In this document: piece by piece, positions 8,106-41,938 of the stretch | Position numbering within the stretch: position 1 is the first letter of the stretch | Layout of the letters: every line of letters starts with the position of its first letter | Source: Prevotellaceae bacterium | GTDB taxonomy: Bacteria > Bacteroidota > Bacteroidia > Bacteroidales > UBA932 | DNA: 44,870 bases | Assembly (NCBI GenBank): GCA_031284065.1 | Contig: JAITAP010000026.1 | Coordinates: 1-44,870 of the forward strand | Direction: 5' to 3' | Position numbers and translations under genes: made by a program | The notes under the pieces: model-generated | The model's input: only the letters and a program-made list of their open reading frames with translations | Told to the model about the DNA's origin: nothing | Database searches by the model: none

Positions 8106-9497
8106 GTGCAAAAACAAGCTCTTACACAAAAACAGCTCCAGCGGCTTTCGCCGTTGCAGCTCCAGCAAATAAAGTTGCTGGAGCTCTCCGTTATTGACCT
8201 TGACCAACGGGTGAATGAGGAGCTGGAGAACAACCCTGTGCTGGAGGAAGTAAAAAGCGACGCCTCGCCGGACGAGGAAGCCACCGCAAAAGCTTCAACC
8301 GAAAGCGAAGAAGACATACCCGCATACCGGCTGCGCGAAAGCAACAGCCAGCCGCGCGAAGGCCGCGACATGCAGCTTGTGGGACAGAACCGGCTTGGGT
8401 TTTACGAAATTATGCTCTCCCAGCTGGCGTTGCACCCCGTTGACGAACGCCAGCGCACAGCCGCAACATTCCTTATCGGCAGCATGGACAGCGACGGATA
8501 CCTGCGCCGTCCGCTCAACGAAATAGCCGACGACATGGCGTTTACCGAAAATCAAGTCGTGAGCGAGCAAGAGCTGGAGGATATGCTGCGCATGATACAG
8601 GACTTTGAGCCTGCCGGCGTTGGCGCGCGCAACCTGCAGGAGTGCCTGCTGCTTCAGCTCGACGCCAAAGAGGAGCAAAGCAAAAACGTGCAGCTGGCAA
8701 AAGTTGTCTTGCAGCGCACGTTTGGCGATTTTTCGGCTAAGAACTACGATAAAATTTGCGCCGAGCTTGGCATTTCGAGCCGGGAGCTGAGCGCTGCCGC
8801 TGCCGAAATAACCAAGCTCAACCCGCGACCCGGCGCCGGGCTGGGCGAAGAGGTGACGGATACCGCCCCACCCATCATACCCGATTTTGTGGTGGAGTAC
8901 AAAGACGGAGCGCTACAGCAATCCCTCACGTCGCGCCATACCCCGCAGCTGCGCGTAAGCCCGGAGTACATTACTTTCCTCAAAAGTCAGGCAAAAAACA
9001 AGGAGGCGCTGAGCTTTGTCCGCAAAAAAATCGACGACGCCCGCTGGTTTATCGACGCTATCCAGCGCAGGTGCATAACGCTCGGCATCGTGATGAACGA
9101 TATTGTGCAAAAGCAAAAGGATTTTTTTTCTACGGGCGACGAAACCAAGCTGCGACCTATGGTCATGCGCTCCGTAGCGAGCGATACGGGCTACGACCTG
9201 TCCACCATATCGCGCGTGGTGAGCAACAAGTACGTGCAAACAAACTTCGGAATATATCCGCTCAAATTTTTCTTTTCGGAATCCATGAAAACCGACGGCG
9301 GCGAGGAAGTCTCAAACCGCACGCTAAAAGTGATGATTAAAAAGCTCGTTGACGAAGAGGACAAATGCTTCCCGCTGAGCGACAAAGAAATTGCCGACAT
9401 TCTCAAGAAGCAGGGCTACATTATTGCCCGCCGCACCGTAGCAAAATACCGCGACATGATGCACATTCCGGTGGCGCGGATGAGAAGAGCCGGCTAA
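8106..9497 (+). CDS. rpoN: RNA polymerase sigma-54 factor
   Basis: N-terminal Q/L-rich region (QKQLQRLSPLQLQQIKLLELS) and a C-terminal RpoN box ARRTVAKYR. The ORF track gives a GTG start. Confidence 0.9.
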   Translation: MQKQALTQKQLQRLSPLQLQQIKLLELSVIDLDQRVNEELENNPVLEEVKSDASPDEEATAKASTESEEDIPAYRLRESNSQPREGRDMQLVGQNRLGFYEIMLSQLALHPVDERQRTAATFLIGSMDSDGYLRRPLNEIADDMAFTENQVVSEQELEDMLRMIQDFEPAGVGARNLQECLLLQLDAKEEQSKNVQLAKVVLQRTFGDFSAKNYDKICAELGISSRELSAAAAEITKLNPRPGAGLGEEVTDTAPPIIPDFVVEYKDGALQQSLTSRHTPQLRVSPEYITFLKSQAKNKEALSFVRKKIDDARWFIDAIQRRCITLGIVMNDIVQKQKDFFSTGDETKLRPMVMRSVASDTGYDLSTISRVVSNKYVQTNFGIYPLKFFFSESMKTDGGEEVSNRTLKVMIKKLVDEEDKCFPLSDKEIADILKKQGYIIARRTVAKYRDMMHIPVARMRRAG

Positions 9498-10144
9498 TCT
9501 CGAAAATCGCAGTGTTTTATTTTGGCAACAATGCGCTGCCCGCTCCGCGCCAGCAGGTCAACGACGGGCTTCAGCACCAAGCCTTCGGCGTCGTAATCTT
9601 TGTTCTCGGCAATGGTGGACTTGAACCCTTTTTTTACAAAATCAACCGCCTCCTGTAGCGTTCCGTAGCCCACAACGGGCACAATGGGGATGCCCAGCTG
9701 CTGCGCCAGCGCCTCGCAGTCGGCTCGCTTGAGCCACCAGATGCCTATCCTTACATCAAACAGGATAAACCCCACCCGGGTTCGCATGTAGTTGCCGCCC
9801 TTTTGGATTCGCATCCCGTAGCCCTCGCCGTAGAGCGTAACGCTCATTGGCTCGCTGCCCGAAGGCGGAAAAACTTGCCGCAGGAGCTCCGGCGTAAACT
9901 TCTCTTGCAGCATTTGCAGCAAGTGCTCCGGCGTATCCGCCTTGTCCGTTCGCCCGCCAAAGCGCACCTGCTCGCCGTCCCAGTGAATACGAATGTTGGT
10001 GCCGTCAACTTTCTCCGTCCACTCCCAGCGGTTGTCCTTCAGGTACTCAAATTCGGGCTGCGACCATTCGCCAACAATCATGCGCTTGCTGCCGCTGCTC
10101 ATGTCGCGCTTGTAAATGGTATTGATTTTTTGGTAAGTTGTCAT
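9494..10144 (-). CDS. Minimal ATP-dependent RNA ligase family protein (adenylyltransferase domain only)
   Basis: Covalent nucleotidyltransferase motifs occur in order: I EKVDGTN, III LYGEGYG, IV FILFDV, V AEGLVLKP, and a terminal KIKH. At 216 aa there is no obvious extra OB or PNK domain. It is convergent with rpoN and overlaps it by 4 nt. Confidence 0.65.
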   Translation of the reverse strand: MTTYQKINTIYKRDMSSGSKRMIVGEWSQPEFEYLKDNRWEWTEKVDGTNIRIHWDGEQVRFGGRTDKADTPEHLLQMLQEKFTPELLRQVFPPSGSEPMSVTLYGEGYGMRIQKGGNYMRTRVGFILFDVRIGIWWLKRADCEALAQQLGIPIVPVVGYGTLQEAVDFVKKGFKSTIAENKDYDAEGLVLKPVVDLLARSGQRIVAKIKHCDFRD

Positions 10145-12016: not shown

Positions 12017-12784
12017 ATGCTGAACATTGTAAAGGTAGGCGGAAACGTAATCGACGACGAGGCGCAGCTGGCGCAGCTCCTGAAAGATTTTTCCGCCATT
12101 CGCGGCTTCAAAATTTTGGTGCACGGAGGGGGCAAGCTGGCAACCAAGCTGTGCGACGCGCTGCACATCCCCACGCAGATGGTGGAGGGGCGGCGCGTAA
12201 CCGACGCCGAAACGCTCAAGGTGACGAGCATGGTGTACGCAGGCTGGATTAGCAAGAGCATCGTGGCCAAGCTGCACGCGCTGGGCTGCCAGTCCATCGG
12301 GCTGTCGGGCGCGGACGGCAACGCCATTCCCGCCGTCAGGCGCAGCCCCACGCCCATAGACTACGGCTTTGTGGGCGACGTTAGCCTTGTGCAAATCAAC
12401 ACAAGGTTCATACAGACCCTGATGGAGCAAGGGCTAACGCCGGTGTTTTCGGCAATTACGCACGACACGCACGGCACGCTGCTCAACAGCAACGCCGACA
12501 GCGTGGCTTCGTCGCTGGCCATCGCCATGAGCGACCTAATGCCCACGCGCCTCGTCTTTTGCTTTGAAAAGAACGGCGTGCTCCGCGACCCCGGCAACGA
12601 CGCCACCGCCATCCCCGAAATAACCCGCGAGCTGTACGAAGAGTACAAAGCCGAAGGCATTATCTCCGGCGGCATGATTCCCAAAGTTGACAGCGCGTTT
12701 AAGGCCATTGCGCATGGCGTAAAGGAAGTGATTATCAAGCACGCCAAGGCGCTGAACGCGGGAGGCGGAACTACGATACGGTGA
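12017..12784 (+). CDS. argB: Acetylglutamate kinase
   Basis: Amino-acid kinase fold: VKVGGNVIDD, LVHGGG, and a TDV-type region NADSVAS. Length is 255 aa. An imperfect -7 box TATCTTTA lies at 11973-11980. Confidence 0.8.
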   Translation: MLNIVKVGGNVIDDEAQLAQLLKDFSAIRGFKILVHGGGKLATKLCDALHIPTQMVEGRRVTDAETLKVTSMVYAGWISKSIVAKLHALGCQSIGLSGADGNAIPAVRRSPTPIDYGFVGDVSLVQINTRFIQTLMEQGLTPVFSAITHDTHGTLLNSNADSVASSLAIAMSDLMPTRLVFCFEKNGVLRDPGNDATAIPEITRELYEEYKAEGIISGGMIPKVDSAFKAIAHGVKEVIIKHAKALNAGGGTTIR

Positions 12785-12811
12785 GGAGAGCCGGAGGTAG
12801 AATATTTTGCG

Positions 12812-12819
12812 TATATTTG
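12812..12819 (+). promoter_or_regulatory. Bacteroidota -7 box TATATTTG upstream of the antitoxin-like gene
   Basis: Exact TAnnTTTG match, 27 nt upstream of the ATG at 12846. Confidence 0.45.
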
Positions 12820-12845
12820 CGGAGAAACAAATTAAGGCAAACAGT

Positions 12846-13076
12846 ATGACGACGATGAGCATTGATATTCTCAACAATGACGCGCTGCGTCTTTTGCGCG
12901 ATATGGAATACTTACGGCTTATCCGCGTGCGGACGGAAGCGGACGAAGGCCACAAACCCCAACAACGCCTGTCGGAACAATTTGCAGGCGCCCTGCATCT
13001 TTCCGACGAGCAGCACGAAGAATTTCAAACCGCGCTGAAAAGAAGCAGAAACGAATGGGAACGGGATATTTATTAG
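12846..13076 (+). CDS. Putative type II antitoxin (VapB-like partner of a PIN toxin)
   Basis: 76-aa acidic/basic protein. Its last codons overlap the start of a PIN-toxin remnant, the classic antitoxin-toxin arrangement. The function call rests on this context. Confidence 0.5.
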   Translation: MTTMSIDILNNDALRLLRDMEYLRLIRVRTEADEGHKPQQRLSEQFAGALHLSDEQHEEFQTALKRSRNEWERDIY

Positions 13077-13223
13077 ATTCCAATGTTATCATAGCTTTTT
13101 TCAATAGCAATTGCTTCGGCAGCTGCACTTTTCCTCAACTTAACATTGCTGACCCGAAACATAGATGATTTCAAGGCTATTCAAGGGTTAACGGTGGTAA
13201 ACCCCTGGAATATGCGTGAGTAA
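13055..13223 (+). pseudogene. Decayed PIN-domain (VapC-like) toxin
   Basis: ATG at 13055 gives MGTGYLLDSNVIIAFFN..., the PIN N-terminal catalytic-Asp strand, then a stop at 13166-13168. A different frame (13146-13223) reads LLTRNIDDFKAIQGLTVVNPWNMRE*, a typical PIN C-terminus. The total is ~169 nt against ~390 nt for an intact VapC, so there is an internal deletion plus a frameshift. Confidence 0.7.
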
Positions 13224-13316
13224 GCGCGGAAAAATTTTATTCCCAAAGCACGAGAGCGAATTGTCCTGTAAAAACCTTGCTATTTCAAAATAATTTAGCC
13301 ATAAAAACCGCAAAAT

Positions 13317-14549
13317 ATGCAGCAAATAAAAATCGAAAATTTTGGTTCAATTAAATACGGATGCGTTGAAATTAACAAGGTTACGGTATTTATCGGGAAT
13401 CAGGGTTCGGGTAAAAGCGCTGTGGCAAAGCTAATATCTACCTTCAAGTGGATTGAAAAGGCATTGGTAAGAGGCGACTACGACAAGAAATGGTTTGAGC
13501 GCAAGGATACAAACCGTTTCAGAAATCAATTTTTACCATACCACAGGCTGGGTTCCGCCGACGCCAAAAAAGATGATACCTACCTAAAGCCTAACTCCGT
13601 GATAGATTATCAGGGCGACGCCTACCGTATCACGTACAGGGACGGCGCAATGTCAATTACCGAAAACGCAAGAGCAGCGTACCTTTTGCCGCAAATTATG
13701 TATGTTCCCGCCGAAAGAAATTTTTTGACTTATGTTAAAGATGCCGGAGAAATACGGCTGTCGGGCGCTTTGCGTGACTTTCATATCGAATATGGCAAAG
13801 CAAAAAACGAGCTGAAAGATTTATCTTTGCCGATTAATGAAATTGACGTTGAATATAACAAGCGGTACGATAATCTTTACCTGCGCGGCGGCAATTACAA
13901 AGTTGAAATAACCGAAGCCGCAAGCGGCTTTCAATCGTTTGTCCCTTTGTTTTTGGTTTCTTATTATTTGGCAAAATCTGTAAAAAAACAAAGCGAAAGC
14001 AAAGCAACTATGAGCAGCCAAGAGAAAGCGCGGTTTGAAAAGGGCGTACAGGAAATATGGCGTAACGCCAGCTTGACCGACGAGCAAAGAATGGTGGCGC
14101 TTTCCGCGCTATCTGCCAAGTTCGATAAGGCAATACTTATAAATATCGTCGAGGAGCCCGAACAAAATTTATTTCCGGCCTCGCAGTGGAAAATGCTGCA
14201 AAGCTTGCTGGCGTTTAACAACATGAACGATGGCAACAAGCTGATTTTGACTACTCACAGCCCGTACCTGATTGGCTACTTAACGTTGGCAGTAAAAGCG
14301 GGAAAGCTAAAATCGCTAATTAGCACGGAAAAGCAAAGGGAAAGCTTGAATGAAACAGTACCTCTTAGCTCGATTGTTAACGCAGGCGACCTATCTATTT
14401 ACGAGCTAAATGAAAAGGAGGGCACTGTTAAGCCGCTTGATACGTTTGACGGGCTTCCCTCTGACGAAAATGCGTTGAGCAACAAATTTGATGAAAGTAA
14501 CGATTTGTTTGCCAAATTATTAGAATTTCAGCAACAACATGAGCTATGA
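13317..14549 (+). CDS. ABC-fold AAA_15/AAA_21-type ATPase (OLD/AbiL/AriA/PtuA-like class)
   Basis: Walker A GNQGSGKS near the N-terminus, a long helical insert, Walker B-like ILINIVEEPEQNLFP, and the TTHSPYL H-loop motif. AT-rich gene. Confidence 0.75.
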   Translation: MQQIKIENFGSIKYGCVEINKVTVFIGNQGSGKSAVAKLISTFKWIEKALVRGDYDKKWFERKDTNRFRNQFLPYHRLGSADAKKDDTYLKPNSVIDYQGDAYRITYRDGAMSITENARAAYLLPQIMYVPAERNFLTYVKDAGEIRLSGALRDFHIEYGKAKNELKDLSLPINEIDVEYNKRYDNLYLRGGNYKVEITEAASGFQSFVPLFLVSYYLAKSVKKQSESKATMSSQEKARFEKGVQEIWRNASLTDEQRMVALSALSAKFDKAILINIVEEPEQNLFPASQWKMLQSLLAFNNMNDGNKLILTTHSPYLIGYLTLAVKAGKLKSLISTEKQRESLNETVPLSSIVNAGDLSIYELNEKEGTVKPLDTFDGLPSDENALSNKFDESNDLFAKLLEFQQQHEL

Positions 14550-15040
14550 GCTTTTTTGATTCCCCCAATCAGCGTGTATCCAGAAAAAAACGTTTCGGGC
14601 TTTGCGACGATGCGCCTCCCCCACATAAACCCGCCTTTCTTGACGAAGCCGACGGTAAGAAGTGGATTGCTGTAGTTCATAACGATTACTCCTACGACGT
14701 TTTGTTCGTTGCACTGGACAACAGCATAGCTTTAAGAAGACCCGACGGAAAGCCCGACAGGTGCAGCGATGGGCTTTTATCCTGTAACTCGACTGTCATT
14801 TTCGTGGAATTAACAACAAGAAAAGACAAGGATTGGAAAAAGGATAAAGAGGAGCAGCTGCGCATAACAATCCGGCATTTTGAGAACACGGAAGAAGCGC
14901 ACGGCTATGAAATCAAAAAGGCATACATTGCCAATAGCAGCTACCCGAAAGATAACACAAGGAATATGATACGGATGAATAATTTTTTTAAGGACACAAA
15001 GTATGTCCTGCGAATTGAAAATCGTATCGTGGTAGAGTAA
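14546..15040 (+). CDS. Hypothetical 164-aa partner protein, possible PD-(D/E)xK-like nuclease
   Basis: The start overlaps the ATPase stop (ATGA, 4 nt). The pattern WIAVVHND...DVLFVALDNS...CSDGLLSCNSTVIFVELTTRK...EEQLRITIRHF resembles a restriction-endonuclease-like core (VRR-NUC/Hjc-like). The canonical ExK lysine is displaced, so the fold call is inference. Confidence 0.4.
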   Translation: MSFFDSPNQRVSRKKRFGLCDDAPPPHKPAFLDEADGKKWIAVVHNDYSYDVLFVALDNSIALRRPDGKPDRCSDGLLSCNSTVIFVELTTRKDKDWKKDKEEQLRITIRHFENTEEAHGYEIKKAYIANSSYPKDNTRNMIRMNNFFKDTKYVLRIENRIVVE

Positions 15041-15064
15041 ACAGAACACTCCAAATTCTTTTTT
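14979..15064. repeat. 86-bp direct repeat, left copy (3' end of the 164-aa gene plus 24 nt)
   Basis: Matches 17029-17114 with 3 mismatches, all after the stop codon. It abuts the IS-derived element's left terminal inverted repeat. Confidence 0.85.
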
Positions 15065-15330
15065 ATGATTATCCGCAAAGCGGCCTCATTGAACATATCC
15101 GGTTCTTTGCGATAAAAAAATTGTAAAAAAATTCTTTTTATTTACATATATCATTCATATTCAGTATTTTCGTGGCGAAATAATTATAAAAATAACGGAT
15201 ATGAATATCGTTAAATTCAGCCGACGATATTGCGGTGAGCAGATTTTTGACCGATTGCTTGTGGCGGCTGTGTCATACAGCACTGATTTCAAGTCGAAAA
15301 TTTACAACAGGTCGCTTCGCGGATAATCAT
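15065..15330. mobile_element. 266-bp MITE derived from an IS1595-family element
   Basis: The termini ATGATTATCCGCAAAGCG (15065-) and CGCTTCGCGGATAATCAT (-15330) are inverted repeats. The internal sequence 15201-15326 encodes only a transposase C-terminal tail, MNIVKFSRRYCGEQIFDRLLVAAVSYSTDFKSKIYNRSLRG*. Confidence 0.65.
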
Positions 15331-15363
15331 AAAACCATTTTTGCGGGTAAGGAAAAAAATCGC

Positions 15364-15371
15364 TACTTTTG
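15364..15371 (+). promoter_or_regulatory. Bacteroidota -7 box TACTTTTG
   Basis: Exact TAnnTTTG match, 19 nt upstream of the ATG at 15390. Confidence 0.4.
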
Positions 15372-15389
15372 CGCAAACTATAGAATGTT

Positions 15390-15531
15390 ATGCAGGTAGT
15401 ATCAACGCGAAAATTCAGGGCAAATCAAAAGGAATATTTTGAATTTGCCGAAAAAGAGTTGGTCCTTAGTGGCTCGTAAAAGTCGGAAGCCGATTGCTTT
15501 ATACGTTCCCGATGATGACGGTATTCTGTAA
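15390..15531 (+). pseudogene. Frameshifted Phd/YefM-like antitoxin remnant
   Basis: MQVVSTRKFRANQKEYFEFAEKELVL then stops at 15477-15479. A neighbouring frame from 15469 continues VARKSRKPIALYVPDDDGIL*. Further antitoxin-like text (KEAFQAIKG...) follows that stop. Confidence 0.5.
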
Positions 15532-15693
15532 AAAGAAGCGTTTCAGGCTATTAAGGGGGTGGGCTGGACGAAGTTCGTAACAATCGGGCAGTTAAGATTG
15601 AAAATAGCGCAGATATACGGGCAGATACGCTGTAGAAGCTTCGCAAGAAGCCAAAAACATCTTTAGGAAATTCACAAGTCGGGCAGTAAGCCG

Positions 15694-16584
15694 ATGATAA
15701 TGAGCAATAACACAAAAATATCCATCCGTTTTTTTGACGATCGAGAAGTTCGTGCGGTTTGGGACGAAGAGAACAACAAATGGTGGTTTTCCGTTTTGGA
15801 TATAGTCGCTGTCCTTACTGACCGGGACGACTACAATAAAGCACGAAACTATTGGAAATATCTCAAGGCCAAGCTAAAAAAAGAAAACAGCAAGTTGGTG
15901 AGCGCCACTACCCAACTGAAACTATTGGCGAGTGATGGCAAGCGCTATTTAGCTGATGTGCTTGACTATAATGGCATTATTGCGCTCGGCAAACAATTCC
16001 CAGCTAAAAAAGCAAACCGTTTTATCGAATGGTTTACTTACAGCGGTGAAAGTATAGATGGAAAAAGTAAAACAAAAGCATACGCCTTGTTTGAAAGCTC
16101 TTTTATCGACAGCATAGAAGTGGGAACAACCAAAGGCTTACAACAAATCCACGCCTATCTGTTCGGCGGGCTTTACGATTTTGCCGGACAAGTAAGACAA
16201 AAAAACATTTCAAAGGGTGGCTTTCAATTTGCGGCAGCTCAATTTTTGGGCAATACGTTAAAGCAAATAGAAGAAATGCCTGAAAACACATTCGATGAAA
16301 TTGCCGATAAATATGCGGAAATGAACATTGCCCACCCATTCATGGAGGGTAATGGGCGAAGTACGCGAATTTGGTTGGATTTGATGCTCAAGAAACGGCT
16401 AAAGCGTTGCGTTGATTGGAGCAAGATTAGTAAAAACGATTACATGAACGCAATGGTAAAAAGTCCTACAAACGGCATGGAGCTGAAGAATCTACTGAAA
16501 AATGCCCTTACGGATGAAATCAACAGCCGTGAAATGTTTATGAAAGGAATTGATTATTCGTATTATTATGAAGAAAACGAGTAG
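15694..16584 (+). CDS. Bro-N-like DNA-binding domain fused to a Fic (AMPylase-type) domain
   Basis: The N-terminus [34 protein letters not shown]... is Bro-N/DinD-like. The C-terminus carries the canonical Fic motif [12 protein letters not shown]. Confidence 0.8.
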
Positions 16585-16601
16585 CCATCTCTCTGGGGTA
16601 A

Positions 16602-17024
16602 GCGCGCATTTTAAGGCGCAACGAGACGTATTCGGAGTGGCCATGCCCCCAATATGGCTGCACGGAACATTACCGCCTCAAAAAGCTGCAACGACAGCTG
16701 GGTCATAAACGCTATCAGCCGATTTGGGAGCTGATACTGTTACGGAAATTGTCAAAGAGCACGTTGACGCAGCGGCGGAGTTAGCCACCGACGATTCAAC
16801 CTCATATAAAAAGCTGAAACAGGTTGTAAAGCTTAAACGGCTGCTTTTGGGTATGCGCCACCAGCTTACAAAAGAGTATTTACAGCATTTACCTGAACGA
16901 GTTCTGTTACAAATTCAGCCGACGATATTGCAGTGAGCAGATTTTCGACCGATTGCCTGTGGCGGCTGTGTCATACAACACTGCGTTCAAGTCGAAAATT
17001 TACAACAGGTCGCTTCGCGGATAA
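16602..17024 (+). pseudogene. Gutted IS1595-family (ISXO2-like) transposase with the right IS end
   Basis: Three fragments lie in three frames. There is a Zn-ribbon remnant SEWPCPQYGCTEHYRLKK...KRYQP and a central piece ELATDDSTSYKKL. The C-terminus is LNEFCYKFSRRYCSEQIFDRLPVAAVSYNTAFKSKIYNRSLRG*. The right terminal inverted repeat GCGGATAATCAT ends at 17028. Positions 16911-17028 are ~95% identical to 15213-15330. Confidence 0.65.
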
Positions 17025-17028
17025 TCAT

Positions 17029-17114
17029 ATAATTTTTTTAAGGACACAAAGTATGTCCTGCGAATTGAAAATCGTATCGTGGTAGAGTAAACAGAACGCC
17101 CCAAATTATTTTTT
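17029..17114. repeat. 86-bp direct repeat, right copy
   Basis: Duplicate of 14979-15064. It starts directly after the right terminal inverted repeat of the IS-derived composite. Confidence 0.85.
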
Positions 17115-17131
17115 AAACTTCATACCAAAAA

Positions 17132-38950: not shown

Positions 38951-39205
38951 GTGGAAGCGCTTGTTACGGTACTCCTAATCATTTTTATTGCGGGATTTTT
39001 TCTGCGGCATTTCGGAAAATACCTCCTGCGCTTCTTTCTGTGGCGCATGGCGAAACGCTTTGGGGCAAACAGCAACGCCTTTGACCAAAATCGCAGAAGC
39101 CGCAAGGCGGCGCGGCAGGAGCAGCCCGCACCGGAGCAAATAATCCCCAACAACGTAGGCGAGTACGTGGACTACGAGGAAGTAAAAAAAGAAAACGGGT
39201 TGTAA
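38951..39205 (+). CDS. DUF4834-family small membrane protein
   Basis: N-terminal TM segment, a basic linker, and the characteristic GEYVDYEEVK tail. Confidence 0.55.
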   Translation: MEALVTVLLIIFIAGFFLRHFGKYLLRFFLWRMAKRFGANSNAFDQNRRSRKAARQEQPAPEQIIPNNVGEYVDYEEVKKENGL

Positions 39206-39232
39206 AATAAAAAACATTATTGTATCTTTGCC

Positions 39233-39240
39233 CCCGCAAA
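39233..39240 (+). promoter_or_regulatory. Bacteroidota -7 box TATCTTTG for tRNA-Gln
   Basis: Exact TAnnTTTG match, 17 nt upstream of the tRNA 5' end. Confidence 0.55.
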
Positions 39241-39256
39241 TTTGATTTTGCCGCAC

Positions 39257-39327
39257 TGACCTATGGTGTAATGGCAGCACAACAGATTTTGGTTCTGTTT
39301 GTATAGGTTCGAATCCTGTTAGGTCAA
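39257..39327 (+). tRNA. tRNA-Gln (anticodon UUG)
   Basis: Hand-folded cloverleaf. Acceptor stem TGACCTA/TAGGTCA. D stem GTGT/GCAC. Anticodon stem ACAGA/TCTGT with loop TTTTGGT (anticodon TTG). T arm ATAGG-TTCGAAT-CCTGT. Discriminator A. No encoded CCA. Confidence 0.85.
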
Positions 39328-39353
39328 CAAAAGAAAAATTACGCATCAGCAAG

Positions 39354-39380
39354 CCTCGCAGCAATGCGGGGGTTTTTTTT
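39354..39380 (+). terminator. Rho-independent terminator after tRNA-Gln
   Basis: CCTCGCA-gcaa-TGCGGGG followed by a T8 run. Confidence 0.7.
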
Positions 39381-39406
39381 GCGTGCACTTTTACACGCAA
39401 AATGTG

Positions 39407-39414
39407 TATATTTG
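39407..39414 (+). promoter_or_regulatory. Orphan -7 box TATATTTG facing a ~340-bp non-coding stretch
   Basis: Exact TAnnTTTG match. There is no ORF before 39759, and the palindromic-element arm starts at 39492. Confidence 0.3.
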
Positions 39415-39491
39415 CTCGCGGATTTGTAATAATTATGCAATTAAAAATTTTTGCCATGACTTTCAAAATATATGGGTATTTCGGGAGACTA

Positions 39492-39556
39492 TGTTGCAAC
39501 GAGAGCACATTATACAAAGCCTAATAAATATTTTCAACTAATTCCCCGTAGGGGAA
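39492..39556. repeat. GTTGCAACGAG-terminus element, copy B (single arm)
   Basis: TGTTGCAACGAGAGCACATTATACAAAGCCTAATAAATATTTTCAACTAATTCCCCGTAGGGGAA. It is ~90% identical to the reverse complement of 41811-41879. Confidence 0.7.
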
Positions 39557-39758
39557 TAATATCAACCGAGCGCAGCGAGCTCATGAACACCTTTAAACAC
39601 ACACACAAGGCGAGTAGTAAAAAAGATTTTGCCCGCTTTCGCCCTTAGCCTATCCCGTGGGGTGTTCCGGTCGCCCCATGCGGTTATATCCGTACCTCTG
39701 GCTGCATTAGTTACTCAAAAGAAATGGTTATCTTGGCAACATAAAGTAAGGCGTCATC

Positions 39759-40307
39759 ATGCAAAAACATATTAGCGAATGGCTCTCGGAAGATACTTTA
39801 CATAAAGCCAAAGGAAAAACAAGGATACAGATATTTCAAGAGTTCGGTAACAAGTTGGAGCCTGTTGCCTACATGTTGCCCGAATACCTGCAATATTTAG
39901 GCGACAATATTAAGGATAATCGCGTATATTCAGGAAAAGGGTATTTTATTGACCATGCCCTAAACCATCATCCTGAAGTTCCGATAGAAATGTATTTTGA
40001 GATACAGAATATTCTATGTAACCCGGATGACGTAAAGTTAGACAACAGAAAAGTCAATAAGAAATCCCTTGTATTTATAAAAGAATATGATAGCTTCTAT
40101 CAGGTTGTTGTGGCTGTTGATGAAACCGAAGAAGGCAAATTTTTGGTGCATAAAACATTTAATTACCACCATAAAAAACCGTATGCAGGTTTACCCGGCA
40201 TACGGTCTTCATTATCGTCATTGGTAGGCGGAACAACTACCATCAGTCATACTGAAAGTTCAGCACCCGGCAGCCCCCTTTCTGCTCTTAATGACGTACA
40301 AAAGTAG
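39759..40307 (+). CDS. Hypothetical protein, possibly a Barnase-EndoU-ColE5/RelE-like (PBECR-type) nuclease module
   Basis: 182-aa AT-rich ORF. The pattern GYFIDHALNHHPEV...IQNILCNPDDV...SLVFIKEYD..YQVVVAVDE...FLVHKTFNY resembles standalone modules found in phage and conjugative polyvalent proteins. This is recognition from memory only. Confidence 0.3.
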   Translation: MQKHISEWLSEDTLHKAKGKTRIQIFQEFGNKLEPVAYMLPEYLQYLGDNIKDNRVYSGKGYFIDHALNHHPEVPIEMYFEIQNILCNPDDVKLDNRKVNKKSLVFIKEYDSFYQVVVAVDETEEGKFLVHKTFNYHHKKPYAGLPGIRSSLSSLVGGTTTISHTESSAPGSPLSALNDVQK

Positions 40308-40343
40308 AAAATAATTCTGAAATCTCCAAATGAGCCTGTGTTG

Positions 40344-40481
40344 TGATTTGCTTGCATTTTTAATGCGATGATTTACAGCATGTTGCAGTTATGATTTGCT
40401 TGCATTTTTGAAATTTTGTGGTAACTTGGAGCCTGTTTCCATCATCAAGGATGTACCCAATTATTGTGATTTGCTTGCATT
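40344..40481. repeat. Three direct copies of TGATTTGCTTGCATT(TTT)
   Basis: Copies lie at 40344-40361, 40392-40409 and 40467-40481. A partial fourth (TGATTTGCCGACATT) lies at ~41691. Confidence 0.75.
40431..40474. repeat. 44-bp perfect direct repeat, copy 1
   Basis: GCCTGTTTCCATCATCAAGGATGTACCCAATTATTGTGATTTGC is identical to 41655-41698. Confidence 0.9.
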
Positions 40482-40496
40482 CCATAAAACAGAAAA

Positions 40497-40520
40497 AAAC
40501 CACTCTTTCTTGAGTGGTTT
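40497..40520. terminator. Bidirectional terminator
   Basis: AAACCACTC-tttctt-GAGTGGTTT with A7 upstream and T-rich sequence downstream, between convergent ORFs. Confidence 0.7.
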
Positions 40521-40545
40521 TCTACTTTTCACAAACAGTTTTCGG

Positions 40546-40800
40546 TTACTTTTTTGTACACTTTGTTACCGTCGTAGTGGTGAGAGTTCCTGATGTTGTC
40601 GTGGATGTGCTTTCCAAGTTACGAGCGTCTTCTTCTGTAATATCACACCATTCTTTTTCAACCTTTACAGGGTCTAAGTTGACGCCGGTATAGGTTGCTG
40701 TAGTTACGCATGTATAACATGCTTTTTTATCACATGCTGCAATTCCAAGCATCAACGCTCCTATTGCTAATCCAAAGGGTAATTTTTTTTCATAATTCAT
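40546..40800 (-). CDS. Small Cys-rich lipoprotein (84 aa)
   Basis: Signal peptide and lipobox (GIAAC). The mature part has 5 further Cys residues and a T-rich tail. No family recognised. Confidence 0.5.
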   Translation of the reverse strand: MNYEKKLPFGLAIGALMLGIAACDKKACYTCVTTATYTGVNLDPVKVEKEWCDITEEDARNLESTSTTTSGTLTTTTVTKCTKK

Positions 40801-40995
40801 TTATTTATTTTAATTGTAGATAAAATTTGTAAAAAAGTAAAATAAATTATTGGAGTTTAGCCAATATTGTCGTAAGTTTTTTTCCTTAGTTTCAAATCAA
40901 CATGAACATATTGAAACTTATGTGCCGGGTGGCAGATTGCCCCTACAACCACCATCCGCTCGCGTAACCTATTTGGTAAATTAAAAATTTGTTTC

Positions 40996-41003
40996 TACAT
41001 TTG
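40996..41003 (+). promoter_or_regulatory. -7 box TACATTTG, 5 nt upstream of the ATG at 41009
   Basis: Exact TAnnTTTG match. The spacing implies a leaderless or near-leaderless mRNA. Confidence 0.4.
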
Positions 41004-41008
41004 GCGGC

Positions 41009-41179
41009 ATGAAAGAAGAAGTAAGTAAATATTGCCTTGACTTGTCAAAGTTAATATTTGGCGGCGGTATTGTTGCTTCAATTGTCAGGCAAGATTTTGA
41101 ACTATCGTATGTTGTAGGTATTGGCGGGGCAATGTTTTTTCTTTTACTTGGTCTCGGATTTCTCATGCGTAAAAAATAA
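41009..41179 (+). CDS. Small 2-TM membrane protein (56 aa), paralog of the 41294 ORF
   Basis: MKEEVSKYCLDLSKLIFGGGIVASIVRQDFELSYVVGIGGAMFFLLLGLGFLMRKK. This ORF is below the track's length cut-off and was read by hand. Confidence 0.45.
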   Translation: MKEEVSKYCLDLSKLIFGGGIVASIVRQDFELSYVVGIGGAMFFLLLGLGFLMRKK

Positions 41180-41184
41180 TTATT

Positions 41185-41304
41185 ATGGCATTAGTTATTT
41201 GGTTTTGCATCGGCGGGGTGGCAGGAATAGCCCTCTGTATATGGGCTCTGCTTAGCGAGCGGAGAGAAAAGAAAAAATTGCTACCTTTGCAAAATGAAAG
41301 TTGA
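41185..41304 (+). CDS. Single-TM peptide (39 aa)
   Basis: MALVIWFCIGGVAGIALCIWALLSERREKKKLLPLQNES. It starts 6 nt after the previous stop and overlaps the next ORF by 11 nt. Confidence 0.35.
   Translation: MALVIWFCIGGVAGIALCIWALLSERREKKKLLPLQNES
41282..41289 (+). promoter_or_regulatory. -7 box TACCTTTG, 4 nt upstream of the ATG at 41294
   Basis: Exact TAnnTTTG match, embedded in the 3' end of the 39-aa ORF. Confidence 0.4.
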
Positions 41305-41494
41305 TAGAAGCATATTTACGGACATTTCCAAGGTTTTCTTGGACGTTGCGAAATACGTGTTAACGGGTACTATACTATCCGTCTTCATCGGCGAGTTCAA
41401 AGGCAATTTGTTGATGGTGTATATCGTCAGCCTTGCGGTGCTCTTTGTTTCTGTCGCATTTTACTTGATTTTTCATCAATTAGGGAGAAAATAA
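41294..41494 (+). CDS. Small 2-TM membrane protein (66 aa)
   Basis: Its N-terminal amphipathic segment KVFLDVAKYVLTGTILSVFIG parallels KYCLDLSKLIFGGGIVASIV of the 41009 ORF. Confidence 0.5.
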   Translation: MKVDRSIFTDISKVFLDVAKYVLTGTILSVFIGEFKGNLLMVYIVSLAVLFVSVAFYLIFHQLGRK

Positions 41495-41496
41495 TT

Positions 41497-41598
41497 ATGT
41501 TGGGATTATATTTTGGATTGGCTGGCCTCGTAATGGTTGCCATACTCGGACTTGTGGGCGGATTGCTGCTTGGACAACGACACACAACTCAGCTGTGA
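41497..41598 (+). CDS. Single-TM peptide (33 aa)
   Basis: MLGLYFGLAGLVMVAILGLVGGLLLGQRHTTQL. It starts 3 nt after the previous stop. Confidence 0.35.
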   Translation: MLGLYFGLAGLVMVAILGLVGGLLLGQRHTTQL

Positions 41599-41654
41599 TA
41601 CGATACATGCACCTACTGCCATATATGCGGGATTTGAAATTTTCTGCATTTTGT

Positions 41655-41698
41655 GCCTGTTTCCATCATCAAGGATGTACCCAATTATTGTGATTTGC
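41655..41698. repeat. 44-bp perfect direct repeat, copy 2
   Basis: Identical to 40431-40474. Weaker similarity extends ~20 bp upstream (TTTGAAATTTT...). Confidence 0.9.
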
Positions 41699-41706
41699 CG
41701 ACATTC

Positions 41707-41879
41707 GACTTTGTTGCAACGAATAACATGCTAACTATTACATAAAGTCTAATAAATATTTTCAATTAGCTACGTTCCAATCGGCTGCGCTGAACTCCGC
41801 TTCGCTCCTATTCCCCGTAGGGGAATAATTGAAAATATTTATTAGGCTTTACATAATGTGCGCTCGTTGCAACAAAGTC
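41707..41879. repeat. GTTGCAACGAG-terminus palindromic element, copies C/D (173 bp, complete)
   Basis: Perfect 16-bp terminal inverted repeats, GACTTTGTTGCAACGA and TCGTTGCAACAAAGTC. The ~55-60-bp arms are imperfectly complementary. There is an internal hairpin TTCCCC-gta-GGGGAA. Confidence 0.75.
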
Positions 41880-41903
41880 AATTCTTAGTTCTGATTCTTT
41901 TCG

Positions 41904-41911
41904 TATCTTTG
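41904..41911 (+). promoter_or_regulatory. Bacteroidota -7 box TATCTTTG
   Basis: Exact TAnnTTTG match, 28 nt upstream of the ATG at 41939. Confidence 0.5.
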
Positions 41912-41938
41912 TCCCTTGTGCATCATTCAACTCCGGCA

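What the first reader, a model, noticed from the sequence alone, without database searches (positions are those of the whole stretch)
13317..15040. Translationally coupled ABC/AAA_15-21-type ATPase plus a 164-aa nuclease-like partner: candidate unnamed two-gene defence module
What the sequence shows:
- The 410-aa ATPase has Walker A GNQGSGKS, Walker B-like ILINIVEEPEQNLFP and TTHSPYL. This trio is typical of the ATPases in OLD, AbiL, PARIS (AriA), Septu (PtuA) and Gabija-type anti-phage systems.
- Its stop overlaps the next start (ATGA at 14546-14549), so the two genes are probably co-translated.
- The pair sits in an AT-rich islet. One 60-nt line inside the ATPase gene (13321-13380) counts 17 G+C, against 40 G+C for a line in argB (12121-12180).
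- The islet also holds a dead PIN toxin and IS debris, a typical defence-island context.

Inference:
- The 164-aa partner does not look by eye like the known partners of such ATPases (TOPRIM/DUF4435 AriB, HNH PtuB, RloB).
- Instead it shows ...DVLFVALDNS...CSDGLLSCNSTVIFVELTTRK...EEQLRITIRHF. This resembles a minimal PD-(D/E)xK core of the VRR-NUC/Hjc type, with a displaced lysine.
Basis: partly seen in the sequence, partly recalled or inferred. Interest (0 to 1): 0.78.

Follow-up and report, generated by a model that had tools for sequence, protein, structure and literature searches.

The report
Catalogued untested ATPase–nuclease defence candidate
The two overlapping genes are real and conserved, but the pair is already listed as the untested anti-phage candidate PDC-M29 in the PADLOC database; it most likely pairs an ABC-type ATPase sensor with a small PD-(D/E)xK-type nuclease, an arrangement common in bacterial immunity.

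Summary
A 410-aa ATPase gene (13317-14549) and a 164-aa gene (14546-15040) overlap by ATGA and lie in a 42% G+C islet between 56% G+C flanks.

The pair is not unnamed. Both proteins match PADLOC PDC-M29A (E 1e-159) and PDC-M29B (E 1.3e-48) over their full length. PDC-M29 is one of 145 untested candidates from Payne et al.

The pairing is near-obligate: 65 of 70 Bacteroidota loci carry the ATPase directly upstream, one more is split by an IS21 insertion, and 48 of 63 keep the ATGA overlap.

The ATPase model is an ABC ATPase, closest to Septu/retron PtuA and Rad50.

The partner has no Pfam family and no significant fold match. Four weaker lines of evidence converge on a PD-(D/E)xK nuclease:
- invariant D58, D75, E88 and Q104;
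- E-x-K in 203 of 251 members;
- the order of strands and helices in the model;
- sub-threshold Pfam, PADLOC and Foldseek hits.

The window's clade has T at the canonical lysine position. All 47 such members have K101 instead, which suggests a relocated catalytic lysine.

Defence function is inferred, not shown. The closest validated analogue is HEC-02 (ABC ATPase + NERD). Interest is modest.

The parts
13317..14549 (+). PDC-M29A: 410-aa ABC-type (AAA_15/AAA_21) ATPase, the putative sensor/scaffold
   Evidence: ORF. PADLOC PDC-M29A E 1e-159, residues 1-407 against a 410-position profile. Pfam AAA_15 9.7e-18. AF2 model pLDDT 84.7, best PDB fold match PtuA 8eea_B at E 4.7e-11.
13395..13418 (+). 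Walker A / P-loop GNQGSGKS (residues 27-34)
   Evidence: Position. G27, Q29, G32, K33 and S34 are invariant in 38 homologues.
13923..13937 (+). ABC signature-like motif S-G-F-Q-S (residues 203-207)
   Evidence: G204, Q206 and S207 invariant, S203 and F205 at least 90%. Calling this an ABC signature motif is my inference from its position.
14133..14177 (+). Walker B region ILINIVEEPEQNLFP (residues 273-287)
   Evidence: Position. N276, I277, E279, E280, E282, Q283, N284, L285 and P287 invariant.
14250..14270 (+). H-loop region TTHSPYL (residues 312-318)
   Evidence: Position. H314, S315, P316 and Y317 invariant.
14546..14549 (+). ATGA stop/start overlap (translational coupling)
   Evidence: The same 4-nt overlap occurs in 48 of 63 related loci, and the rest overlap or abut.
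14546..15040 (+). PDC-M29B: 164-aa partner, putative PD-(D/E)xK nuclease effector
   Evidence: PADLOC PDC-M29B E 1.3e-48, full length. No Pfam or NCBIfam family. AF2 model pLDDT 91.9. Weak hits converge on the PD-(D/E)xK superfamily.
14717..14719 (+). D58, conserved acidic residue after strand 52-56
   Evidence: D in 250 of 251 members.
14768..14770 (+). D75, candidate 'PD' aspartate at the start of strand 76-80
   Evidence: D in 247 and E in 4 of 251 members. Strand positions.
14807..14815 (+). E88-L89-T90, the (D/E)xK position; K is replaced by T in this clade
   Evidence: E88 in 251 of 251 members. Position 90 is K in 203 and T in 47. It lies in strand 83-90.
14846..14848 (+). K101, candidate relocated catalytic lysine at the start of helix 97-113
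   Evidence: K101 in 47 of 47 T90 sequences and in 0 of 203 K90 sequences.
14855..14857 (+). Q104, invariant glutamine in the helix after the ExK strand
   Evidence: Q in 251 of 251 members.

Best explanation
The locus is a member of PADLOC candidate system PDC-M29. This is a self-contained, horizontally mobile two-gene cassette found almost only in Bacteroidota.

Gene A encodes an ABC-type ATPase of the PtuA/AriA/Rad50-like class. Gene B encodes a small stand-alone PD-(D/E)xK-type nuclease. The two are made in fixed proportion through a conserved ATGA stop/start overlap.

Proposed mechanism (inferred, by analogy with HEC-02, Septu and PARIS):
1. The ATPase oligomer binds the nuclease and holds it in check.
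2. It senses an infection cue, such as a phage protein or an aberrant DNA structure.
3. Through ATP binding or hydrolysis it releases or activates the nuclease.
4. The nuclease cleaves phage or host nucleic acid and aborts the infection.

In the window's subclade the catalytic lysine has moved from the (D/E)xK strand (T90) to the following helix (K101), while the acidic residues are kept. The enzyme is therefore probably still active.

What is shown: family identity, synteny, coupling, the ABC fold, and motif conservation and covariation.
What is inferred: nuclease activity, the A-B complex, the trigger, and the defence function itself.

Confidence by component: membership of PDC-M29 about 0.97; B having a PD-(D/E)xK fold about 0.8; defence function about 0.6. 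The overall figure of 0.55 is for the whole statement.
For: Identity:
- PDC-M29A at 1e-159 and PDC-M29B at 1.3e-48, both full length.
- The Payne et al. supplement lists CAS_00123 FAM_00005>>FAM_02872 as 'Assign as candidate PDC-M29'.

Obligate pairing:
- The ATPase lies directly upstream on the same strand in 65 of 70 loci, and one more locus (L062) is split by an IS21 insertion.
- The ATGA overlap is present in 48 of 63 loci.
- There is no conserved third gene.

ATPase:
- Walker A, Walker B, H-loop and signature-like residues are invariant.
- The model matches PtuA, retron PtuA and Rad50 at E down to 4.7e-11, with 160 hits at E<=1e-3.

Nuclease:
- D58, D75, E88, Q104 and N130 are essentially invariant, and E-x-K occurs in 203 of 251 members.
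- D75 sits at the start of strand 76-80 and ExK in the hairpin partner 83-90, followed by helix 97-113. This is the canonical PD-(D/E)xK layout.
- The most frequent sub-threshold Pfam families across 150 members are NERD (11), SduA_C (5), HSDR_N_2 (4), NucS_C (3), PDDEXK_9 (2) and Hjc (1).
- PADLOC weak hits go to HEC-02B, PDC-M47B, PDC-M56B, Cas4 and CARF_PDDEXK.
- Weak Foldseek hits include Bax1, BspD6I (probability 0.85, rmsd 3.3 A over 91 columns), Can2, Hjc and Mus81.

Both genes point to the same systems: the ATPase weakly hits HEC-02A, PDC-M47A and PDC-M56A, and HEC-02 needs both genes for phage defence.

Lysine swap: T90 pairs with K101 in 47 of 47 sequences, with all other key residues kept 47 of 47.

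Mobility:
- The closest relative (A 86%, B 80% identical) sits in an unrelated context.
- In the window the pair lies in a low-GC islet with toxin-antitoxin and IS debris and a Fic candidate, PDC-S04.
- Some neighbours in other loci are type I R-M, DarG, AbiEi, PifA and caspase genes.
Against: - No experimental test of PDC-M29 was found: no paper mentions it, and it was not among the candidates tested in the cold-seep study.
- There is no significant fold match for B (no hit at E<=0.001 in PDB or BFVD) and no PDB sequence match.
- Every nuclease-family hit is below threshold, and the window's own B protein hits none of them.
- The canonical lysine is absent in the window's protein.
- The T90/K101 clade looks like a single evolutionary event, so the 47 of 47 is not 47 independent observations.
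- Many homologous loci sit among housekeeping genes rather than in defence islands.
- A-B complex formation was not modelled.
Confidence: 0.55

Rival explanations
1. The pair is a toxin-antitoxin or addiction-type module that stabilises mobile DNA. B is a toxic nuclease and A is its ATP-dependent neutraliser. The selfish cassette persists by post-segregational killing rather than by protecting against phage.
For: The cassette moves between unrelated contexts. In the window it lies next to other toxin-antitoxin-like debris: a PIN remnant, a Phd-like remnant and a Fic gene. AAA_21 is annotated in Pfam as 'putative AbiEii toxin, Type IV TA system'. Defence association of the neighbours is weak.
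Against: The cassette is almost absent from plasmids (1 record), from phages (0 records) and from viral contigs (1), which is where addiction modules are usually enriched. A 410-aa ABC ATPase is an unusually large antitoxin. The related pair HEC-02 gave phage defence. The boundary between toxin-antitoxin and abortive-infection systems is in any case blurred.
Confidence: 0.15
2. The pair works in DNA repair or recombination, analogous to Rad50-Mre11 or SbcC-SbcD: an ABC ATPase that recognises DNA ends or structures plus a nuclease that processes them for host genome maintenance.
For: Rad50 is among the significant fold matches of the ATPase. The weak hits of B include Hjc, Mus81, NucS and Bax1, which are repair or recombination nucleases. 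Some loci lie among housekeeping genes.
Against: The distribution is patchy and the context varies even between close relatives. The G+C content is foreign to the host. Insertions inactivate the system in some genomes: an IS21 in gene B in L062, and lone 3' fragments in L067, L068 and L070. The model shows no long Rad50-type coiled coil. Core repair genes are not usually this dispensable or mobile.
Confidence: 0.08
3. B is not a nuclease. It could be an inactive PD-(D/E)xK-like or unrelated small alpha/beta protein that acts as an adaptor, a DNA-binding specificity factor or a regulator of the ATPase. Any effector activity would lie elsewhere, for example in ATP depletion or in recruitment of host factors.
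For: There is no significant fold or family match for B. The window's protein lacks the canonical lysine. RFC subunits also appear among the weak fold hits.
Against: The acidic residues, Q104 and N130 are invariant across 251 members that have diverged to about 26% identity. The loss of K90 is always accompanied by the gain of K101. Such a pattern is expected for a maintained active site, not a decayed one. The sub-threshold hits converge on one nuclease superfamily.
Confidence: 0.15

Closest known systems
PADLOC PDC-M29 (phage defence candidate, multi-gene no. 29; Payne et al., bioRxiv 10.1101/2024.01.29.577857)
   Same: Both proteins match the two PDC-M29 HMMs over their full length, at 1e-159 and 1.3e-48. 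The gene order, strand and adjacency are the same.
   Different: Nothing structural differs: this locus is a member. PDC-M29 is only a computational candidate with no described fold, mechanism or test. The window's copy belongs to the T90/K101 subclade and has lost the Lys-rich linker or N-terminal extension seen in its nearest relatives.
HEC-02 (ABC ATPase + NERD-domain PD-(D/E)xK protein; validated in E. coli, both genes required)
   Same: It has the same two-gene architecture and the same inferred logic. The window's ATPase weakly hits HEC-02A at 1.4e-9, and B-family members weakly hit several HEC-02B models, best 7e-5. NERD is the commonest weak Pfam hit.
   Different: Similarity is far below membership level, and the window's own B hits no HEC-02B model. 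B is a minimal protein of about 165 aa with an extra N-terminal beta region carrying invariant FGxCD, W40 and N46. This clade also has a relocated lysine.
Septu (PtuA ABC ATPase + PtuB HNH nuclease), including the retron-associated PtuAB
   Same: It is the best solved-structure match for the ATPase: 8eea_B at E 4.7e-11, probability 1.00. It also pairs an ATPase with a separate nuclease gene.
   Different: TM-score is only about 0.43 at 12-13% identity. NCBIfam PtuA scores 32.6 bits against a cutoff of 500. The partner is not an HNH protein.
PARIS (AriA ABC ATPase + AriB TOPRIM/DUF4435 nuclease)
   Same: AriA is the second-best PADLOC match of the ATPase, at 8.8e-23. It too is a two-gene ATPase + nuclease system. 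From my own knowledge, not tested here: AriA sequesters AriB until a phage anti-restriction protein triggers its release.
   Different: The AriA match is partial, in two stretches, and about 137 orders of magnitude weaker than the PDC-M29A match. B has no TOPRIM or DUF4435 similarity.
PDC-M47 and PDC-M56 (other untested PADLOC ATPase + small-protein candidates)
   Same: The ATPase hits PDC-M56A at 7.9e-16 and PDC-M47A at 1.5e-8. B-family members weakly hit PDC-M47B (8 members, best 2.7e-4) and PDC-M56B (4 members). These look like sister families.
   Different: The matches are weak, the HMM families are distinct, and these systems are likewise uncharacterised.

Membership tests
PADLOC PDC-M29 | Protein A matches the PDC-M29A HMM over its full length | tested here: met
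   E 1e-159, 530 bits, residues 1-407 on profile positions 1-409 of 410.
PADLOC PDC-M29 | Protein B matches a PDC-M29B HMM over its full length | tested here: met
   PDLC04563 at E 1.3e-48, residues 1-163. PDLC04564 at 4.9e-19.
PADLOC PDC-M29 | A and B are adjacent on the same strand, in the order A then B | tested here: met
   ATGA overlap at 14546-14549. The same arrangement occurs in 65 of 70 related loci, plus one locus split by an IS21 insertion.
PADLOC PDC-M29 | Confers anti-phage defence | not testable with these tools
   The source paper lists PDC systems as untested. No paper mentions PDC-M29.
ABC ATPase (SMC/Rad50/PtuA-like class) | Walker A, Walker B and H-loop conserved, with an ABC-type fold | tested here: met
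   The motif residues are invariant. The model at pLDDT 84.7 matches PtuA and Rad50, with 160 PDB hits at E<=1e-3.
PD-(D/E)xK nuclease superfamily (protein B) | Conserved D ... (D/E)-x-K catalytic motif | tested here: inconclusive
   Family level: D75 in 247 of 251 members, E88 in 251 of 251 and K90 in 203 of 251. The window's own protein has T90. K101 is always present when K90 is absent, but whether it is catalytically equivalent is untested.
PD-(D/E)xK nuclease superfamily (protein B) | Alpha-beta-beta-beta-alpha-beta core, with D at the start of strand 2 and ExK in strand 3 | tested here: inconclusive
   The element order in the model fits: strands 52-56, 76-80 and 83-90, helix 97-113, strand 123-130. 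Foldseek gives no hit at E<=0.001. The best nuclease hits have probability up to 0.85 and TM up to 0.40.
PD-(D/E)xK nuclease superfamily (protein B) | Significant profile match to a member family | tested here: not met
   All matches are sub-threshold: NERD best 0.0064, NucS_C 0.0032, Hjc 0.0078. The window's protein has none. The convergence on one clan is suggestive only.
   No VRR_NUC hit. Hjc appears in 1 of 150 members at 0.0078. Hjc structures match at E of about 0.44 and TM 0.23.
PARIS (AriA/AriB) | AriA-family ATPase with a TOPRIM/DUF4435 AriB partner | tested here: not met
   AriA HMM at 8.8e-23, partial, against PDC-M29A at 1e-159. B has no AriB, TOPRIM or DUF4435 hit.
Septu (PtuA/PtuB) | PtuA equivalog score and an HNH PtuB partner | tested here: not met
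   NCBIfam PtuA scores 32.6 bits against a cutoff of 500. B has no HNH hit. The only link is fold-level similarity of the ATPase.
HEC-02 | HEC-02A and HEC-02B HMM matches at family level | tested here: not met
   HEC-02A at 1.4e-9 only. The window's B has no HEC-02B hit. HEC-02B models are weakly hit by a few of the 150 family members.

The most novel reading that the evidence does not exclude
PDC-M29 could be a functional anti-phage system specific to Bacteroidota, whose effector is a previously unclassified minimal branch of the PD-(D/E)xK superfamily. In that case the window's subclade would document a natural relocation of the catalytic lysine from the beta-strand (position 90) to the following helix (position 101). 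That change might alter substrate choice or regulation by the ATPase.
Probability: 0.4. Interest if true: 0.45.

Novelty: new member of a known kind. Interest (0 to 1): 0.3.

Why it matters
If PDC-M29 were validated, it would add one more ABC-ATPase-plus-nuclease immune module. This one is largely restricted to Bacteroidota, a phylum whose phage defences are much less explored than those of Proteobacteria and Firmicutes. It would also give the 'hypothetical' partner family a fold and an active-site assignment: about 750 clusters at 50% identity that currently have no Pfam family. The T90/K101 swap provides a ready-made natural experiment for testing active-site plasticity. The discovery itself is not new, however. 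The pair is already searchable in PADLOC, and its architecture repeats a very common theme.

Tried and rejected
- Sequence searches of the PDB found nothing useful. The single ATPase gave nothing at E<=0.01. The ATPase profile gave only P-loop-level ABC transporter, OLD and PtuA hits at E>=0.014. The B profiles of 42 and 150 sequences gave only noise (1m5q, 4nox).
- Foldseek of the B model against PDB and BFVD gave no hit at E<=0.001. The fold assignment therefore rests on convergent weak evidence.
- I wanted to measure the distance from K101 to D75/E88 in the model, but coordinates are not exposed to the scripts.
- Literature: 'PDC-M29' appears in no main text. The cold-seep validation study tested other PDCs, not M29.
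- Phage or plasmid carriage was rejected: 0 phage records, 1 plasmid and 1 IMG/VR contig.
- A conserved third gene was rejected: no flanking family occurs in more than 4 of 115 neighbours.
- The sigma-70 promoter and terminator scan was uninformative. It found 13 promoter-like sites against 7.6 expected, and Bacteroidota promoters are not covered by the scan.
- Membership of PARIS, Septu, Gabija, AbiL or OLD was considered and rejected, both on HMM score and on the nature of the partner.
- The per-member neighbourhood output does not allow an exact fraction of defence-related neighbours. I did not compute an enrichment statistic.
Full report
**1. Observation**

The stop of the first overlaps the start of the second in ATGA.

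The quoted motifs are present. GNQGSGKS is at residue 27, ILINIVEEPEQNLFP at 273 and TTHSPYL at 312. The quoted base counts are also exact: 17 of 60 G+C and 40 of 60 G+C.

The genes lie in a 42.0% G+C islet (about 13060-17100) between flanks of 56% G+C. The left flank holds SufB-like and argB-like genes. The right flank holds a 472-aa gene and a homoserine-dehydrogenase-like gene. These gene names are my reading of the translations.

**2. What it is called**

The pair is not unnamed.
- Against PADLOC-DB v2 the ATPase matches PDC-M29A at E 1e-159 (residues 1-407 of a 410-position profile).
- The partner matches PDC-M29B at E 1.3e-48 (residues 1-163).
- The next-best hit for the ATPase is AriA at 8.8e-23, so the assignment is unambiguous.

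PDC stands for 'phage defence candidate'. Payne et al. (bioRxiv 10.1101/2024.01.29.577857) derived 145 such systems from genes embedded in BREX, DISARM or type I R-M loci. They added them to PADLOC explicitly as untested candidates. Their supplementary table lists CAS_00123, FAM_00005>>FAM_02872, as 'Assign as candidate PDC-M29'.

No paper in the searchable library mentions PDC-M29. A later study that tested eight PADLOC candidates did not include it.

**3. The pair is a conserved, coupled unit**

A scan of one genome per species returned 70 loci that encode a relative of the partner. Nearly all are from Bacteroidota.
- In 65 of the 70, a full or contig-truncated ATPase homologue lies directly upstream on the same strand.
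- In L062 the two genes are separated by an IS21-type insertion (IstA/IstB-like ORFs) that truncates gene B.
- In L067, L068 and L070 only a 3' fragment of B is present, with no ATPase.
- The 4-nt ATGA overlap recurs in 48 of 63 scorable loci. Most of the rest overlap by 1, 10 or more nt. In the window's nearest relatives (L002-L005) an upstream in-frame ATG restores the ATGA overlap and adds a Lys-rich N-terminal extension.

There is no conserved third gene. Among 115 immediately flanking ORFs the commonest Pfam families are HTH domains, in 4 members each.

**4. The ATPase**

Pfam gives AAA_15 (9.7e-18) and AAA_21 (1.3e-9). In 38 homologues the following are invariant:
- Walker A: G27, Q29, G32, K33, S34;
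- Q126;
- a signature-like S-G-F-Q-S at residues 203-207;
- Walker B: I277, E279, E280, then E282, Q283, N284, L285;
- the H-loop: H314, S315, P316, Y317.

No solved structure is detectable by sequence. The AlphaFold2 model (pLDDT 84.7, pTM 0.87) matches 160 PDB chains at E<=0.001. The best are Septu PtuA (8eea_B, E 4.7e-11, TM about 0.43), then retron-associated PtuA and Rad50. The protein is therefore an ABC-type ATPase of the class that repeatedly partners with nucleases. It is not a member of the PtuA family: NCBIfam PtuA scores 32.6 bits against a cutoff of 500.

The ATPase family is far larger than the partner family. It has more than 5,500 clusters at E<=1e-5, against 155 clusters for the partner. 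The Payne table shows the same ATPase family, FAM_00005, paired with several other partner families.

**5. The partner**

It has no Pfam or NCBIfam family, and every homologue is annotated 'hypothetical'. An exhaustive profile search finds 750 representatives at 50% identity with E<=0.001. All of the top 150 are stand-alone proteins of about 165 aa.

The model is confident (pLDDT 91.9, pTM 0.89), but neither PDB nor BFVD gives a hit at E<=0.001.

Four independent but individually weak lines of evidence point to a PD-(D/E)xK nuclease.

(i) Conserved residues. Across 251 full-length members the counts are D58 250, D75 247 (+4 E), E88 251, Q104 251 and N130 246. Position 90 is K in 203 members, which gives a canonical E-x-K.

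(ii) Position in the model. D75 lies at the start of strand 76-80. E88-x-K90 lies in the adjacent strand 83-90, followed by helix 97-113 and strand 123-130. That is the classical arrangement.

(iii) Weak fold hits. They are dominated by PD-(D/E)xK enzymes: Bax1, R.BspD6I and Nt.BspD6I (probability up to 0.85, rmsd 3.3 A over 91 columns), Can2, Hjc, Mus81, and the Lassa L and R2 endonuclease regions. RFC subunits are mixed in.

(iv) Weak family hits.
- When 150 members are scanned one by one, the most frequent sub-threshold Pfam families are NERD (11), SduA_C (5), HSDR_N_2 (4) and NucS_C (3). PDDEXK_9 (2) and Hjc (1) follow further down the list. All of these are PD-(D/E)xK families.
- The equivalent PADLOC scan gives PDC-M47B, HEC-02B, Cas4_II, PDC-M56B and CARF_PDDEXK.

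None of this is a significant match, and the window's own protein hits none of these families. I put the fold assignment at about 0.8.

**6. A displaced lysine, but not the one suggested**

The window's protein reads F-V-E88-L-T90. Forty-seven of the 251 members share T90, and all 47 have K at position 101, three residues before the invariant Q104. None of the 203 K90 members has K101; they have A, G, S or T there.

Within the T90 clade, D21, N46, D58, D75, E88, Q104 and N130 are each retained in 47 of 47 members. The clade itself has diverged to 47% identity. This pattern is what one expects if a catalytic lysine has been relocated rather than lost.

Two cautions apply.
- The clade is coherent, so this is probably a single event that was then inherited.

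**7. Function**

Defence is an inference. The arguments in favour are:
- the origin of PDC-M29 in defence-embedded cassettes;
- the ATPase class;
- the nuclease-like partner;
- distant similarity of both components to HEC-02, PDC-M47 and PDC-M56, where HEC-02 (ABC ATPase + NERD) protects E. coli and needs both genes;
- mobility: the closest relative, 86% and 80% identical, sits in an unrelated neighbourhood;
- foreign base composition;
- occasional inactivation by insertion sequences;
- some defence neighbours, including type I R-M subunits, DarG, AbiEi, PifA, caspase and other PDCs.

The arguments against a strong claim are:
- many loci sit among ordinary metabolic or regulatory genes;
- there is no experiment.

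The cassette is almost absent from phage records (0), plasmid records (1) and viral contigs (1).

The proposed mechanism is borrowed from HEC-02, Septu and PARIS, and none of it was shown here. An ATPase oligomer restrains the nuclease, senses an infection cue, and activates or releases the nuclease in a nucleotide-dependent way. The result is degradation of nucleic acid and abortive infection.

**8. Local context**

The islet also contains:
- an 89-aa ORF followed by a PIN-like remnant split across two frames (13052-13222), which is recognisable by eye only;
- an IS1595-derived structure directly after gene B, with a left inverted repeat at 15061-15086 and right ends at 15309-15334 and 17007-17032 and a transposase fragment at E 1.5e-5;
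- inside that structure, a frameshifted Phd-like remnant (E 0.011);
- also inside it, an intact Bro-N + Fic gene (15694-16584) that matches PADLOC PDC-S04 at 1e-164 and NCBIfam NmFic at 9e-83.

The whole insertion is bracketed by an 87-nt direct duplication of the 3' end of gene B (14979-15065 against 17029-17115, 97% identical; the coding part is identical).

**9. Verdict**

The novelty claim fails, because the pair is a clear member of a catalogued but untested family, and its architecture is a common one.

What this analysis adds is a fold and active-site hypothesis for the partner, the T90/K101 swap, and quantified synteny and coupling. Interest is modest, at 0.3.

Noticed in passing
window 14979-15065 and 17029-17115 (with 15061-17032 between them): An 87-nt direct duplication (97% identical) of the 3' end of gene B plus its downstream bases brackets an IS1595-bounded insertion of about 1.96 kb. 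The coding part is 100% identical. The insertion has a left inverted repeat at 15061-15086, right ends at 15309-15334 and 17007-17032, and a 129-nt repeat at 15213-15341 / 16911-17039. This is far longer than a normal target-site duplication. It may reflect recombination between two nearby IS copies.
   Followed up: partly
window 15694-16584 (+): An intact 296-aa Bro-N + Fic protein lies inside the IS-bounded insertion. It matches PADLOC candidate PDC-S04 at 1e-164 and NCBIfam NmFic adenylyltransferase at 9e-83. A second catalogued defence candidate therefore sits right next to PDC-M29.
   Followed up: partly
window 15384-15531 (+): A frameshifted Phd/YefM-like antitoxin remnant (MQVVSTRKFRANQKEYFEFAEKELVL | VARKSRKPIALYVPDDDGIL) lies upstream of the Fic gene. 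The Pfam PhdYeFM match is only 0.011.
   Followed up: partly
window 12807-13076 and 13052-13222 (+): An 89-aa ORF with no family hit is followed by a PIN/VapC-like remnant whose N-terminal and C-terminal pieces lie in different frames, implying an internal deletion. It is recognised by eye only. Pfam finds nothing in the 52-aa reconstruction.
   Followed up: partly
L062 5273-8001: In a Sporocytophaga MAG an IS21-type element (IstA/IstB-like ORFs) is inserted into the 5' part of gene B and separates it from the ATPase. This looks like a naturally inactivated copy.
   Followed up: partly
L067 6536-6652; L068 168-296; L070 8001-8066: Lone 3'-terminal fragments of gene B occur without an ATPase gene. 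In L067 the fragment is near a tyrosine-recombinase-like remnant. Together with the duplication in the window, this suggests that the 3' end of B is a recurrent breakpoint.
   Followed up: no
L002-L006 (junction between A and B): The nearest relatives of the window's pair have a 61-86-nt A/G-rich spacer after the ATPase stop. In L002-L005, translating it from the ATG that overlaps the stop adds a Lys-rich N-terminal extension of about 27 aa to B. The window's copy lacks this segment entirely.
   Followed up: no
window 9494-10144 (-): A 216-aa protein of the RNA_ligase family (Pfam 5.4e-20) lies in the high-GC flank, about 3 kb upstream of the islet.
   Followed up: no
window 39000-42000, ORF 39759-40307 (+): A second low-GC islet (35-44% G+C) contains a 182-aa ORF matching PBECR3, a phage-Barnase-EndoU-ColicinE5/D-RelE-like nuclease family (Pfam 7.7e-9).
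   Followed up: no
ATPase family as a whole (Payne et al. supplementary file 8): The ATPase family is far larger than the partner family: more than 5,500 clusters against 155. In the Payne table the same ATPase family, FAM_00005, is paired with several different partner families (HEC-01, PDC-M29 and PDC-M31 among them). This suggests modular swapping of effectors on one ATPase scaffold.
   Followed up: no
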